Virus genome (UHGV): UHGV-0282798
DNA from: a virus
DNA length: 45,006 bases
Direction: 5' to 3' (one strand)
In this document: piece after piece, positions 4,999 through 7,525 of the stretch
Position numbering within the stretch: position 1 is the first letter of the stretch
Layout of the letters: each line of letters opens with the position of its first letter
Notes under the pieces: generated by a model
What the model was told of the DNA's origin: nothing
What the model saw: the letters and a program-made list of their open reading frames with translations, nothing else
Database searches by the model: none
Translations under genes and position numbers: made by a program

Positions 4999-5439
4999 TT
5001 ATCCTAATAGTTGTTTGGTAATAATCTTGCCGCCGGTGTTGGTGTCGAACTTCGATGCAACAGCTACGCCGCCATGTGCTGAATAACCACATTCCATAGC
5101 CGCCAGTGCATAAGGAGAGCCGGACCCAACGGCGGCAAAACCGTCTGCAATAGGGATAACAGAGCTTAGTGCACAATCCCATGATTTATAGAACGCGACT
5201 TTATACACCTTTTCTGTGTCTTTCACGAACACAAGGGCTTCGAAATCGAAGTCGTATGATTTTGGATTAAGTACGCCATTATCACGGATTAGCATAACCC
5301 CAACTCCTGCGTCCCCGGCTACCCCAATTATGAAATGGTCATTCTCGTATATCTTTGTGTCTGTGTTGTAACAGTTACTCCCGCACACAACACAGGTGTC
5401 ACAGGCCATTGTCTTTCCGTCAAACGCGATAGTCGTCAT
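4999..5439 (-). CDS. HslV/proteasome-beta-like Ntn-hydrolase with Cys4 insertion
   Basis: N-terminus MTTIAFDG (Thr directly after initiator Met); KIYENDHFIIGVAGD parallels HslV RLYNDKVIAGFAGG; AAVGSGSPYALAA parallels HslV IAIGSGGPYAQAA; inserted CDTCVVCGSNC cluster. Confidence 0.6.
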   Translation of the reverse strand: MTTIAFDGKTMACDTCVVCGSNCYNTDTKIYENDHFIIGVAGDAGVGVMLIRDNGVLNPKSYDFDFEALVFVKDTEKVYKVAFYKSWDCALSSVIPIADGFAAVGSGSPYALAAMECGYSAHGGVAVASKFDTNTGGKIITKQLLG

Positions 5440-5786
5440 TTATGTCTCCAGATGTATTGTCGTCTCTGTGGTTTCGTCGGGATATCTTCATACCCCAGCG
5501 ATTTCCAGTAATTAAATAACCGGTTAGCGATTGCTGCGCGTTCCTGTGTTTTAAACTCACCCAGGTTAACTGCCTTCCCGTTCTGGAACCCACAGGCGCG
5601 GATAGCTTTGCGCCTGGCCTGAATCTCCGGGTACAGCGCGTTACGGCGGCGCTTGTGTATTCGGGCGGTTGCTCTCGGTGACAGCGGCACGAGGCCGCTT
5701 CGTTTCAGGATGTCAGTTGCCCGGCTCATGCCATCCTCCCACATTTCGAGCATGTCTGGAAGTCGTCCACATCGTGCATAACCCAC
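5436..5786 (-). CDS. Small AP2-like DNA-binding protein
   Basis: NGKAVNLGEFKTQERAAIANRLF resembles the AP2 core (LGxFxTxEEAAxAY). Probable start is ATG at 5727-5729 (MSRATD..., ATGA overlap with upstream stop). Confidence 0.4.
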   Translation of the reverse strand: MGYARCGRLPDMLEMWEDGMSRATDILKRSGLVPLSPRATARIHKRRRNALYPEIQARRKAIRACGFQNGKAVNLGEFKTQERAAIANRLFNYWKSLGYEDIPTKPQRRQYIWRHK

Positions 5787-6055
5787 TCATGCTTGCATAC
5801 CTGCGCATCCTCTTTACGGCAACCGGACTGCCCCGTAACATCTTCAACCCCTTCCACGTGTGTAACGGCCCCACAGTTCACGCACTCGACATAATCCGGG
5901 AACTGGTCTTTGTATTTCTGTAACTCGGCTTCGAGCGCCATTAAATCAGAGTACCGCACGCGCACATACTCGCCGCTATATTGGGCCTCCGGCGACAGTG
6001 TACGCCAGTCGAATAGTTTAATCATCACCGCGCCTCCGTAAATCGCGAAGCGCAA
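5726..6055 (-). CDS. Zn-ribbon protein, paralog A
   Basis: C-terminal SGCRKEDAQVCKHEWVMHDVDDFQTCSKCGRMA, paralogous to the C-terminus of 6465-7034. Probable start ATG 6023-6025 (MIKLFDW) preceded by GGAGG. Confidence 0.5.
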   Translation of the reverse strand: MRFAIYGGAVMIKLFDWRTLSPEAQYSGEYVRVRYSDLMALEAELQKYKDQFPDYVECVNCGAVTHVEGVEDVTGQSGCRKEDAQVCKHEWVMHDVDDFQTCSKCGRMA

Positions 6056-6335
6056 TAATCCCGTCTAACATTCCGATGGCGTGGTCGACTGTGAAATCCT
6101 CATCCTCACAAAGATTCCGCAGATGTAATACGGCCTTGACCAATTTATGGTAATCCTCTGTGTAACAAAGCTCGCCCTCTTCCGCGCGCTGTTCGTTTAA
6201 CTGAAATAGCGTTGCGCCAGGTACAGTACCAAGCGGAACAGCATTAAAAGTACGAATAGTCATGTTATTTCTCCTGTTTACCAAGTCGCTTAGGTGAGCA
6301 AATAGCGCGTACCTCTGAATCGTTGGGCTTGTCAC
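6018..6335 (-). CDS. Hypothetical protein
   Basis: ORF track; likely start at internal ATG 6261-6263 (MTIRTFNAV...). Confidence 0.4.
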   Translation of the reverse strand: MTSPTIQRYALFAHLSDLVNRRNNMTIRTFNAVPLGTVPGATLFQLNEQRAEEGELCYTEDYHKLVKAVLHLRNLCEDEDFTVDHAIGMLDGIIALRDLRRRGDD

Positions 6336-6468
6336 CCTGGAACAGGAAGTGCGCGTTCTCTGCGGCGCGTGCCGCTGACTGGCACGCCTCCATCGAGTAA
6401 AACGTTTCCGATGTCGCCAGGTGCATCTGGCCTGCGGACAGTACCCATATAAATAAGATGCTGGTCAT
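6265..6468 (-). CDS. Small protein with N-terminal hydrophobic segment
   Basis: MTSILFIWVLSAGQMHLA looks like a signal or TM segment. Confidence 0.4.
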   Translation of the reverse strand: MTSILFIWVLSAGQMHLATSETFYSMEACQSAARAAENAHFLFQGDKPNDSEVRAICSPKRLGKQEK

Positions 6469-7034
6469 TTCAGTTTAGCCCCGCAATCAAGACACTTTTT
6501 AGTAAAACCCGGCGCAAAGCCTTTGCGCAAACCGACGGTATTAGCGTGTTGGCAATCGCTCGATTCCGATTCTTGCTTACCGCATTTAGCGCAAATGAAG
6601 TAGTCCCCTTTTTCATCTAGCACCCAATCATGCTCGCATTCCTGAGTATCTTCCTTACGGCAATCAGATTGCTCAGGTTCATGCGGAAACTTATTAGCTA
6701 GAACGGATACCTGCCTACCGAGTAAATTAAGCGCTTTCTGCAGCTCTGTCTCCCGCGCCGACGCATCGCGTAACTGATTCTTAAGTGACTGCAACTCATG
6801 CGCCAGGTCTTCGCACTGGTTGTTATTTACCTGCTGACGTAAACTGTCTTTCAGCGCTCGTATTTCGTCGTCCTTACCGGCGATATGCTGCTGTAGGTTG
6901 TGAATTACCTGCTTGACCTCATCAAGGTCGGATATCCGCACAGACACATCGAAAGATGTGACATCTTTCTTATTTACCTGCTGCCGTAGCTGGTCAATCA
7001 GGTACTCGAATACTACATCATTTGCGTTCTGCAT
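6465..7034 (-). CDS. Coiled-coil protein with C-terminal Zn-ribbon, paralog B
   Basis: Long heptad-like region then SDCRKEDTQECEHDWVLDEKGDYFICAKCGKQ plus a second CxxC (CLDCG). Confidence 0.55.
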   Translation of the reverse strand: MQNANDVVFEYLIDQLRQQVNKKDVTSFDVSVRISDLDEVKQVIHNLQQHIAGKDDEIRALKDSLRQQVNNNQCEDLAHELQSLKNQLRDASARETELQKALNLLGRQVSVLANKFPHEPEQSDCRKEDTQECEHDWVLDEKGDYFICAKCGKQESESSDCQHANTVGLRKGFAPGFTKKCLDCGAKLK

Positions 7035-7219: not shown

Positions 7220-7525
7220 GTAAATTTTATTGGCGTGTTATAGAATCTATGAACGACAGTAACGCGCGCTCCGCTTCTGCTTCTCTTTCTTCAAGCGACC
7301 AGGTAGCGGATTCCTCTGTTGCCGTTGCTATATCTGTTTTCACATCAATCATCGTGTTGATTAACGCGATTAGTCGTTCGGCCTGTTCTTTAGTAATCAT
7401 TGTTGCATCTCCTGCAATAGTCGCTTCTATTGTTGCGTTTGGTGAAATAGAACAAAAATGAGAAAAATGATACGCTGCTGTGTAGCAGCGTAAGTCACAA
7501 AGCCAAATAGTAACCTATTGACCTG

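What the first reader, a model, noticed from the sequence alone, without database searches (positions are those of the whole stretch)
5726..7034. Two paralogous Zn-ribbon modules on otherwise different early proteins
The C-termini SGCRKEDAQVCKHEWVMHDVDDFQTCSKCGRMA (5726-6055) and SDCRKEDTQECEHDWVLDEKGDYFICAKCGKQ (6465-7034) are clearly homologous: CRKEDxQxCxH(D/E)WV, then an acidic stretch, then F-x-C-x-KCG. One is attached to a ~100-aa N-terminal region and the other to a long coiled-coil. Duplicated small zinc-binding modules in the early region are typical of host-takeover or anti-defence proteins.
Basis: seen in the sequence. Interest (0 to 1): 0.5.

Follow-up and report, generated by a model that had tools for sequence, protein, structure and literature searches.

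The report
Swappable zinc-ribbon cassettes on phage proteins
The two similar Cys/His stretches are real relatives, but they are two different members of a pool of at least 20 interchangeable mini zinc-ribbon cassettes that Kagunavirus-type phages attach through a conserved linker to several unrelated small proteins, an uncatalogued system whose function is still unknown.

Summary
ORF1 (5726-6025, minus strand) and ORF2 (6465-7034, minus strand) share a 32-35-aa stretch (53% identity, pairwise E = 3e-11). No shuffle reaches the observed score, even with the Cys/His framework held fixed.

This is not a private duplication. The window is a Kagunavirus-like (Guernseyvirinae) siphophage. Across about 240 homologues there are roughly 23 types of 20-31-aa C-x-H…C-x-x-C cassette. 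Their only invariant residues are those four presumed Zn ligands. Proteins carry 0-4 cassettes, attached through a conserved, predicted-disordered junction (E/G-Q-S-G-C-R-K-E-D-x-Q-E). At least four or five unrelated small carrier proteins of the same leftward operon bear them. ORF1 carries type T04.

DNA comparisons show sharp recombination breakpoints at the junction/cassette boundary (about 6640) and at the N-terminus/core boundary of ORF1 (about 5935).

No Pfam, NCBIfam, PADLOC or PDB family reaches threshold, and I found no paper describing the system.

The function is inferred only. The most likely reading is Zn-stabilised protein-binding knobs on helical stalks, reassorted as a specificity repertoire. 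The "early" and "anti-defence" labels remain untested.

The parts
5726..6025 (-). ORF1, 99 aa from the ATG at 6025 (the open frame extends to a TTG at 6055). A chimera of a variable N-terminus, the phrog_29624 core, a junction and a T04 cassette. Its stop overlaps the start of the next gene (ATGA).
   Evidence: (phrog_29624 E = 8.4e-21 for residues 30-71; phrog_6094 E = 4.5e-8 for residues 63-107)
5843..5935 (-). Conserved core of the ORF1 family, LEAELQKYKDQFPDYVECVNCGAVTHVEGVE. It contains a C-x-x-C-x4-H half-site. Short-form homologues (81 of 121 clusters) stop right after ...HVEGVE.
5798..5833 (-). ORF1 junction peptide GQSGCRKEDAQV
5738..5797 (-). ORF1 cassette type T04, CKHEWVMHDVDDFQTCSKCG. 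The presumed Zn ligands are C77, H79, C92 and C95 in 99-aa numbering.
   Evidence: Absent at more than 62% identity from 50,697 phage records; close copies occur only in metagenome assemblies.
6465..7034 (-). ORF2, 189 aa, a member of phrog_6094. It consists of a helical carrier, a junction, cassette T00 and cassette T01. Its stop overlaps the start of the next gene (ATGA).
   Evidence: (E = 4.1e-47)
6690..7025 (-). N-terminal helical (coiled-coil-like) carrier of ORF2. Predicted helices span residues 4-21, 34-71 and 74-115.
   Evidence: pLDDT 60-87 over the helices. Only coiled-coil-type sub-threshold hits in Pfam, NCBIfam and PADLOC.
6820..7001 (-). Two 35-nt direct repeats (6820-6854 and 6967-7001, 77% identical, 147 nt apart) that encode ...LRQQVN.... 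They bracket the 49-residue segment missing from the approximately 137-140-aa family members.
6639..6674 (-). ORF2 junction peptide EQSDCRKEDTQE. The recombination breakpoint seen against L014 lies at its 3' end.
6579..6638 (-). ORF2 cassette type T00, CEHDWVLDEKGDYFICAKCG (ligands C133, H135, C148, C151). This is the stretch homologous to ORF1's cassette.
6480..6554 (-). ORF2 cassette type T01, CQHANTVGLRKGFAPGFTKKCLDCG (ligands C161, H163, C181, C184). It is basic, nearly always the last cassette, and nearly invariant across the family.
6018..6335 (-). The gene between the two carriers' partner genes (probable start at the ATG at 6263). Its first 41 residues are 93% identical to the N-terminus of P0163, where that N-terminus is fused to the ORF1-family core, junction and cassette. 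It is another mosaic partner.
7227..7400 (-). DUF7438 gene (57 aa). It carries no cassette here, but a homologous N-terminus carries a junction and a T05 cassette in P0258, so it is a third carrier family.
   Evidence: (PF24219, E = 1.5e-10)

Best explanation
SHOWN.
- The two similar stretches are two different alleles (T04 in ORF1, T00 in ORF2) from a pool of at least about 20 discrete 20-31-residue C-x-H-x-W...C-x-x-C-G cassettes.
- Guernseyvirinae siphophages append these cassettes, singly or in tandem strings of up to four, to the C-termini of several unrelated small helical carrier proteins of one leftward operon. The carriers are the phrog_6094 coiled-coil protein, the phrog_29624 core, a DUF7438 protein, a K-01 CDS23-like protein and a 'MATLKEHQ...' protein in Salmonella phages.
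- Each first cassette is joined to its carrier by a conserved junction peptide (E/G-Q-S-G-C-R-K-E-D-x-Q-E) that is predicted to be disordered.
- Cassettes and N-termini are exchanged by recombination, with sharp breakpoints at the junction/cassette boundary and at the ...EDY.KL|EAELQKY boundary.

INFERRED (structure). Each cassette is a mini zinc ribbon that holds one Zn through its four invariant residues (Cys, His, Cys, Cys). The variable loop between the two knuckles forms the exposed surface.

INFERRED (function). The cassettes are binding knobs displayed on helical, probably oligomeric, stalks. Each discrete type would recognise a different partner, most probably a host protein or a competitor's protein. 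Recombination would then reassort a phage's repertoire of specificities. ORF1 and ORF2 together give this phage three non-redundant cassettes (T04, T00, T01).
For: Homology.

Family anatomy: among 121 + 121 clusters there are about 23 loop types, 0-4 cassettes per protein and 44 architectures in the ORF2 family. Seven types are shared between the two gene families.

Ligands: the only invariant columns in 51 diverse cassettes are C13, H15, C28 and C31.

Further carriers: P0258 (DUF7438-like N-terminus, E = 4.7e-9), P0270 (K-01 CDS23-like, 73% identity) and the 'MATLKEHQ' proteins in approximately 40-kb Salmonella phages.

Breakpoints:
- ORF2 and the L014 gene are 90-100% nt identical through the carrier and junction, then about 50% from the C-E-H codons onward.
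- ORF1 and the L015 gene are 30-50% identical in the N-terminal part, then 83-100% from about 5935 to the end.
- The short and long ORF1-family forms diverge immediately after the HVEGVE codons.

Junction: it is conserved as a peptide, not as DNA. Identical codons given an identical residue occur 0.66 of the time, versus 0.72-0.86 in same-type cassette bodies.

Structure: the cassette-only AlphaFold model has pLDDT 81-89 over residues 11-35 with a beta-hairpin (17-19 and 26-28), and the junction has pLDDT about 51. The best geometric analogues are TFIIB, RPA and ribosomal zinc ribbons.

Repertoire: each type is nearly invariant across many phages, so the types are discrete alleles. Net charges range from -5 to +3. 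In the four genomes with cassettes on both genes, all types differ within a genome.
Against: - There is no experimental evidence for metal binding, partners or phenotype.
- The cassettes are low-confidence in the full-length model (pLDDT 29-52).
- Strong conservation within each type shows purifying selection. That fits fixed partners, but it is not the classic signature of an arms race at the residue level.
- Kagunaviruses are reported to be highly RM-sensitive, so at least one popular anti-defence role is unlikely.
- The protein samples are the best 120 hits of each search, so type frequencies are biased towards the query's own types.
- The breakpoint evidence rests on two pairwise comparisons.
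Confidence: 0.6

Rival explanations
1. The cassettes are nucleic-acid-recognition modules. Tandem Zn-ribbon units joined by conserved linkers would read short DNA or RNA sequences, as C2H2 zinc-finger arrays or primase zinc-binding domains do. The carriers would then be phage transcription or replication regulators whose target specificity is reassorted.
For: Zinc ribbons are common in nucleic-acid-binding proteins, and the best geometric analogues are TFIIB, RPA and ribosomal ribbons. The tandem-array-plus-conserved-linker architecture is similar. T01, T06, T10 and T15 are basic, at +2 to +3. Neighbouring genes include HTH regulators.
Against: Many types are acidic, including both homologous window cassettes (T00 at -3, T04 at -2, T14 at -5). 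The junction is itself acidic or mixed in charge. No DNA-binding family is hit. Many proteins carry a single cassette, which would give very little sequence specificity.
Confidence: 0.2
2. The modules are a simple duplication within this genome. One gene's C-terminal module was copied onto the neighbouring gene in this phage lineage, and there is no wider system.
For: The two genes lie 410 bp apart on the same strand and share the junction motif.
Against: ORF1's T04 is much closer to T04 copies in other genomes than to ORF2's T00. Both cassette types occur on both carrier families and on further carriers in many phages. The DNA identity of the two window copies is only about 68-77%.
Confidence: 0.03
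3. The cassettes are a Lar-like or other anti-restriction function. Small phage Zn-ribbon proteins would block host restriction-modification or another specific defence.
For: There is a weak sub-threshold Pfam hit of ORF1 to Lar_restr_allev (14.3 bits versus a cutoff of 28.6). The genes sit in an accessory block of small genes, and the cassette repertoire is variable.
Against: The Lar hit covers ORF1 residues 44-71, which is the core and not the shared cassette, and it is below threshold. BASEL Kagunavirus isolates show high sensitivity to RM systems (PMC11990801). There is no meaningful PADLOC hit.
Confidence: 0.07
4. The conserved junction is a processing site. The carriers would be mini-polyproteins, and the cassettes would be released as free approximately 3-kDa Zn peptides, for example by the phage's own HslV-like peptidase encoded three genes downstream.
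For: The junction is conserved at the peptide level with free synonymous variation and is predicted to be disordered. An HslV-family peptidase gene lies at 4999-5439 in the same operon.
Against: Later junctions within arrays differ (KSPGRQKEDTQE, DKEYKPKNDTQE, VTKSSE). Some relatives lack the peptidase gene between phrog_9632 and the holin (ORH_001). There is no evidence of cleavage. Peptide-level conservation is equally expected for a linker that packs against the ribbon.
Confidence: 0.05
5. The similarity is a chance or compositional resemblance between two Cys-rich tails.
For: The modules are short and rich in Cys, and generic CxxCG knuckles match many unrelated proteins weakly.
Against: Pairwise E = 3e-11. 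0/5000 composition shuffles and 0/20000 framework-preserving shuffles reach the observed score. Hundreds of homologues share the same junction and framework.
Confidence: 0.01

Closest known systems
Generic zinc ribbons (Pfam clan Zn_Beta_Ribbon; for example the TFIIB N-terminal ribbon, Zn_Ribbon_1, Zn_ribbon_3)
   Same: Four metal ligands are supplied by two short knuckles separated by a beta-hairpin. The domain is about 20-30 residues. The second knuckle is the classic C-x-x-C-G. The best geometric analogues of the model are the TFIIB, RPA and ribosomal ribbons.
   Different: The first knuckle is C-x-H-x-W rather than C-x-x-C. No Pfam ribbon model reaches its gathering score. There is no significant PDB match by sequence or fold. 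No known ribbon family is described as a shuffled cassette pool with a dedicated junction.
PHROG families phrog_6094 and phrog_29624 (function unknown)
   Same: ORF2 is a full-length phrog_6094 member. ORF1 residues 30-71 match phrog_29624 end to end.
   Different: PHROG treats them as two unrelated families. ORF1 is a chimera of both profiles, and neither entry records the cassette and junction structure or assigns any function.
Eukaryotic C2H2 zinc-finger arrays with the conserved TGEKP linker (for example PRDM9, KRAB-ZNFs)
   Same: The architecture is analogous: tandem mini Zn domains, conserved inter-domain linkers, variable recognition surfaces, and copy number and order that change by recombination.
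   Different: The fold and ligand pattern differ (beta-beta-alpha, C2H2). The only sequence resemblance is the C-x-x-C-G knuckle (PRDM9, E = 0.003 summed over repeats). The kingdoms differ, and many cassettes here are acidic.
Module shuffling at short conserved motifs in T-even phage adhesins and tail fibres (gp38 glycine-rich motifs, gp37 'His boxes'); from my own knowledge, not tested here
   Same: Discrete variable segments are bounded by short conserved motifs at which recombination reassorts specificities among related phages.
   Different: Those are virion receptor-binding proteins. Here the modules sit on small non-structural proteins, and one pool is shared by several unrelated carrier genes.
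DksA/TraR-type proteins (a coiled coil plus a C4 zinc finger that binds RNA polymerase); from my own knowledge
   Same: A small protein built from a helical coiled coil followed by a zinc-binding element. Phage and plasmid versions exist.
   Different: The defining C-x2-C-x17-C-x2-C zinc finger (PF01258) is not matched by ORF1 or ORF2. The zinc part here is modular and variable in number.
Lar restriction-alleviation protein (PF14354)
   Same: A small phage or prophage Zn-ribbon protein encoded in an accessory region.
   Different: Only a sub-threshold hit (14.3 versus 28.6 bits), and it falls on the ORF1 core rather than on the shared cassette.

Membership tests
phrog_6094 (ORF2) | Significant full-length match to the family profile | tested here: met
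   E = 4.1e-47, 160.6 bits, residues 61-188 against profile positions 11-141 of 142. There are 1198 homologues at E <= 1e-3.
phrog_29624 (N-terminal two-thirds of ORF1) | Significant match to the family profile through to its end | tested here: met
   E = 8.4e-21, residues 30-71 against profile positions 19-60 of 60. The remainder of ORF1 (63-107) instead matches phrog_6094 positions 61-106 (E = 4.5e-8), so ORF1 is a chimera.
Zinc ribbon (fold class) | Four Cys/His ligands contributed by two knuckles | tested here: met
   C13, H15, C28 and C31 are the only invariant columns in 51 diverse cassettes.
Zinc ribbon (fold class) | Beta-hairpin or three-stranded sheet carrying the knuckles, with structural similarity to solved ribbons | tested here: inconclusive
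Zinc ribbon (fold class) | Stoichiometric Zn binding | not testable with these tools
   This needs metal analysis of purified protein.
Pfam zinc-ribbon families (Zn_ribbon_3 PF13248, Zn_Ribbon_1 PF13240, DUF5817 PF19134) | Score at or above the curated gathering threshold | tested here: not met
   16.6 versus 27, 15.3 versus 25 and 13.9 versus 31 bits for ORF1. ORF2 gives only coiled-coil noise plus DUF5817 at 12.6 versus 31.
Lar restriction alleviation (PF14354) | Score at or above the gathering threshold over the Lar domain | tested here: not met
   14.3 versus 28.6 bits, residues 44-71 only.
C1 domain (PF00130) | The full H-C-C-C-C-H-C-C two-zinc motif with a score above threshold | tested here: not met
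   15.3 versus 26.5 bits. Only profile positions 1-19 (H...C-x-x-C) are matched.
DksA/TraR (PF01258) | The C-x2-C-x17-C-x2-C zinc finger following a coiled coil | tested here: not met
   No hit for ORF1 or ORF2 at E <= 1. The first knuckle here is C-x-H.
Known anti-phage defence or counter-defence components (PADLOC-DB) | Significant domain-level match to a defence-system protein | tested here: not met
   Only weak hits to the coiled-coil regions of JetC, LmuB and SMC-like proteins (E >= 2.5e-5), plus HEC-08 at E = 6e-4. No dedicated anti-defence library was available.

The most novel reading that the evidence does not exclude
Guernseyvirinae phages maintain a population-wide, recombination-shuffled library of mini zinc-ribbon 'warheads'. 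A standard junction would plug these onto several different scaffold proteins. Each warhead would neutralise or hijack a different host factor, such as a defence sensor or effector, or a rival phage's protein. It would be a natural plug-and-play binder system, analogous in logic to polymorphic toxin tips or variable receptor-binding modules, but built from approximately 25-residue domains on non-structural proteins.
Probability: 0.3. Interest if true: 0.8.

Novelty: new variant of a known kind. Interest (0 to 1): 0.6.

Why it matters
If the cassettes are target-specific binders, this would be one of the smallest natural modular recognition systems known: about 25 residues, one metal ion and a standard connector. 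It would also give a compact way to read a phage's host-interaction repertoire straight from its sequence.

It would assign a role to a block of 'hypothetical proteins' found in hundreds of Escherichia and Salmonella phages that are being considered for therapy and biocontrol.

It is directly testable. BASEL Kagunavirus isolates (Bas70-76) and many sequenced relatives differ naturally in cassette content.

Even without a known function, there is a practical annotation point. phrog_6094 and phrog_29624 are not independent families. They share a mobile module, so similarity-based annotation of these small proteins will be confounded by cassette content.

Tried and rejected
- Pfam, NCBIfam and PADLOC scans of ORF1, ORF2 and their neighbours gave only sub-threshold zinc-ribbon hits and coiled-coil noise. 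A Pfam scan of ten related proteins found no model for the cassette.
- A profile search of the cassette alignment against PDB sequences matched only generic C-x-x-C-G knuckles, with best E = 0.003 summed over PRDM9 repeats.
- The search for related loci on IMG/VR returned only 5 loci, too few for a population-level recombination test.
- I tested whether the junction is conserved at the DNA level as a recombination sequence. It is not specially conserved: synonymous sites vary (0.66 identical codons).
- Contigs for the 'MATLKEHQ' carrier and for a free-standing tandem array were too short to give context. The tandem array P0279 has no match in the phage collection.
- Literature searches found no description of these proteins (Kagunavirus or Guernseyvirinae with zinc or early genes; zinc ribbon with domain shuffling; BASEL). 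The ApeA preprint was irrelevant. The K1B4 transcriptome paper gives no temporal class for these ORFs.
I corrected it.
Full report
1. WHAT IS IN THE WINDOW

The window is a Kagunavirus-like (Guernseyvirinae) siphophage genome of about 45 kb. Region 5000-8000 matches 395 phage records, mostly from Escherichia and Salmonella phages of 40-45 kb, but no record covers more than 63% of it.

Both ORFs named in the finding exist on the minus strand. ORF1 is open from a TTG at 6055, but its homologues begin at MIKLFDW..., which corresponds to the ATG at 6025 and gives 99 aa. ORF2 spans 6465-7034 and encodes 189 aa.

Both sit in a tightly packed leftward block with ATGA-type stop/start overlaps. In the direction of transcription the order is: DUF551 gene, a terminator-like hairpin (7471-7492), DUF7438 gene, a 47-aa ORF, ORF2, a 67-aa gene, an approximately 81-aa gene, ORF1, a 97-aa basic protein, an HslV-like peptidase, two holins and the endolysin.

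2. OBSERVATION CHECK

BLASTP aligns ORF1 residues 76-107 with ORF2 residues 122-153 at 53% identity and 75% positives, without gaps, E = 3e-11. The local score of 113 compares with 26.7 +/- 5.5 for composition-preserving shuffles (0/5000 reach it). When the shared Cys/His positions are fixed and only the other residues are shuffled, 0/20000 reach the observed score. The homology is real.

The DNA copies are only about 68-77% identical, so the event is old.

Four corrections to the finding:
- ORF2's copy is internal and is followed by a second cassette.
- The part of ORF1 ahead of the module is about 65 aa, not about 100.
- The Cys of 'CRKED' is not conserved.
- The window holds exactly three cassettes.

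3. THE FAMILY PICTURE

PHROG places ORF2 in phrog_6094 (E = 4e-47). ORF1 is a chimera: residues 30-71 match phrog_29624 through to its end, and residues 63-107 match the middle of phrog_6094.

I retrieved 1198 homologues of ORF2 and 345 of ORF1 from the 5.8-billion-protein set and read the best 120 of each.

The ORF2 family has a conserved N-terminal helical carrier with repeat-bounded insertions and deletions. It is followed by a junction (E-Q-S-G-C-R-K-E-D-x-Q-E) and then one to four different C-x-H-x-W...C-x-x-C-G units.

The ORF1 family has a variable N-terminus and a conserved core (LEAELQKYKDQFPDYVECANCGSVTHVEGVE). In 81 of 121 clusters it stops there. Otherwise it continues through the same junction into the same kinds of units.

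Clustering the loops gives about 23 types and 44 architectures among 121 ORF2-family proteins. Seven types are shared by both gene families. ORF1 carries T04. ORF2 carries T00 followed by T01.

In an alignment of 51 diverse cassettes, the only invariant columns are Cys13, His15, Cys28 and Cys31. The junction Cys is present in only 82% of first junctions.

Later junctions inside arrays differ but are recognisably related: KSPGRQKEDTQE after T05, DKEYKPKNDTQE after T02, and VTKSSE after T07.

4. MORE CARRIERS

I ran an exhaustive profile search with the junction-plus-cassette alignment against 1.84 billion representative proteins. It found 192 clusters at E <= 1e-3. Among them:
- P0258 joins a DUF7438-like N-terminus, homologous to the window gene at 7227-7400 (E = 4.7e-9), to a junction and T05.
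- P0270 joins a K-01 CDS23-like N-terminus (73% identity) to a junction and T08.
- A set of 'MATLKEHQ...' proteins carries EQAGCRKxDTQVC junctions. These map to approximately 40-kb Salmonella phages.

The window gene between the 67-aa gene and ORF1 shares its first 41 residues (93% identity) with P0163, in which that N-terminus is fused to the ORF1-family core and a cassette.

At least four or five unrelated carriers therefore use one cassette pool.

5. RECOMBINATION BREAKPOINTS

ORF2 and the L014 gene (P0018) are 90-100% identical at the nucleotide level through the carrier and the junction. Identity falls to about 50% exactly at the C-E-H codons (window about 6640), where T00-T01 is replaced by T03.

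The reciprocal case holds for ORF1. ORF1 and the L015 gene (P0122) are 30-50% identical over the N-terminal part. They are 83-100% identical from about 5935 through the core, junction, T04 and into the next gene.

The short and long ORF1-family forms diverge immediately after the HVEGVE codons.

Inside ORF2, two 35-nt direct repeats 147 nt apart bracket the 49 residues that the approximately 140-aa forms lack.

The junction itself is conserved as a peptide with free synonymous variation: identical codons given an identical residue occur 0.66 of the time, against 0.72-0.86 for same-type cassette bodies. Its conservation therefore reflects protein-level selection and not DNA homogenisation.

ORF1's T04 is 81% nt and 28/35 aa identical to the T04 in the ORF2-family gene of L008. 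That is closer than its match to T00 in its own genome.

No record among 50,697 phage genomes has T04 at more than 62% identity. Close copies occur only in metagenome assemblies.

6. STRUCTURE

The full-length ORF2 model shows three helices (4-21, 34-71 and 74-115; pLDDT 60-87) and a poorly modelled Cys/His tail.

The cassette-only model, built from 51 sequences, has pLDDT 81-89 over residues 11-35, with a beta-hairpin and a short third strand. The junction has pLDDT about 51.

I conclude that the cassette is a one-zinc mini ribbon with an unusual C-x-H first knuckle. This rests on the ligand pattern and the prediction. It has not been demonstrated.

7. BEYOND THESE PHAGES

The profile also retrieves, through the cassette core only:
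- small proteins made of 2-6 tandem cassettes without the junction;
- six giant (over 1300 aa) secreted proteins with N-terminal 'CEHEWVTDPET..CSKCG' repeats;
- 56 clusters of signal-peptide proteins with 'GHxWxxATCxxPxTCxxCG' repeats.

None has a Pfam model. With such short Cys-dominated units, homology and convergence cannot be separated here.

8. FUNCTION (INFERRED)

The relevant observations are:
- The types are discrete and individually well conserved.
- They combine freely and sit at the ends of helical carriers.
- Their charge ranges from -5 to +3.
- Genomes with cassettes on both genes carry non-redundant types.

The most economical reading is a set of Zn-stabilised protein-binding knobs with different partners, reassorted by recombination. 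I put about 0.9 on the structural and evolutionary description and about 0.4 on this functional reading, for 0.6 overall.

The rivals are nucleic-acid recognition (0.2; many types are acidic), a Lar-like or other anti-restriction role (0.07; the hit is below threshold and Kagunaviruses are RM-sensitive), processing at the junction by the neighbouring HslV-like peptidase (0.05), a private duplication (0.03) and chance (0.01).

'Early' expression is plausible from position but was not tested.

9. NOVELTY

The fold class (zinc ribbon) and the process (module shuffling in phage genes) are both known. What I did not find in Pfam, NCBIfam, PADLOC, PHROG annotation, the PDB or the searchable literature is this particular system: a cassette family with a dedicated junction, shared by several small non-structural carriers.

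I rate it a new variant of a known kind, with interest 0.6. The pattern is unexpected and directly testable, but the function is unknown.

Noticed in passing
window 4999-5439 (-): A 146-aa HslV-family (Ntn-hydrolase, proteasome beta-like) peptidase with the N-terminal M-T-T-I-A-F-D-G motif (phrog_1040, E = 5e-34; Pfam Proteasome below threshold). It is encoded between the small-gene block and the holins. Some relatives, such as ORH_001, appear to lack it at this position.
   Followed up: partly
window 6265-6468 (-): A 67-aa protein (phrog_3766, E = 3e-36) that always lies between the two carrier genes. It has a hydrophobic N-terminus (ILFIWVLSAG) and two Cys, so it may be a small exported or membrane protein. 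It is translationally coupled (ATGA) to ORF2.
   Followed up: no
window 5843-5935 (-), ORF1 core: The conserved core offers only three candidate ligands (C-x-x-C-x4-H), even in the 60-aa short forms that have no other Cys. It may form an intermolecular (dimer-bridging) metal site after the short helix, reminiscent of a zinc hook. This is speculative.
   Followed up: no
window 6820-6854 and 6967-7001: 35-nt direct repeats (77% identical, 147 nt apart) inside ORF2 match a 49-residue presence/absence polymorphism in the family. The carrier length therefore also varies by repeat-bounded indels. Other family members carry further coiled-coil inserts, for example SELARYKKPYIAYVKKTDW....
   Followed up: partly
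window 7471-7492 (-): A strong terminator-like hairpin (9-bp stem with 5 GC pairs, then a T-run) lies between the DUF551 gene and the DUF7438 gene. This suggests the leftward block may be split into two transcription units just upstream of the cassette-bearing genes.
   Followed up: no
window 5436-5729 (-); L015 3292-3578: The 97-aa basic protein downstream of ORF1 (phrog_9632, E = 1e-52) contains a V-N-L-G-E-F-x-T-x-E-x-A-A motif that looks like an AP2 or integrase-type DNA-binding domain. This is my own reading and was not tested. In metagenome contig L015 the gene appears frameshifted.
   Followed up: no
proteins P0264-P0385, not in the window: Abundant uncatalogued repeats occur in signal-peptide or lipoprotein-like proteins ('GHxWxxATCxxPxTCxxCG', up to 10-11 copies) and at the N-termini of 4000-aa secreted proteins ('CEHEWVTDPET..CSKCG'). 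No Pfam model covers them. Their relationship to the phage cassettes is unresolved.
   Followed up: partly
L002 2802-3242 (phage vB_Eco_K-01): The ORF2-family gene of K-01 has a degenerate junction (EQSGCRKEDTHSQGTGVSGRVREGG...) before an atypical cassette (CSHLWHYTDDHLVHCVLCG). This may be a frameshifted or remodelled junction.
   Followed up: no
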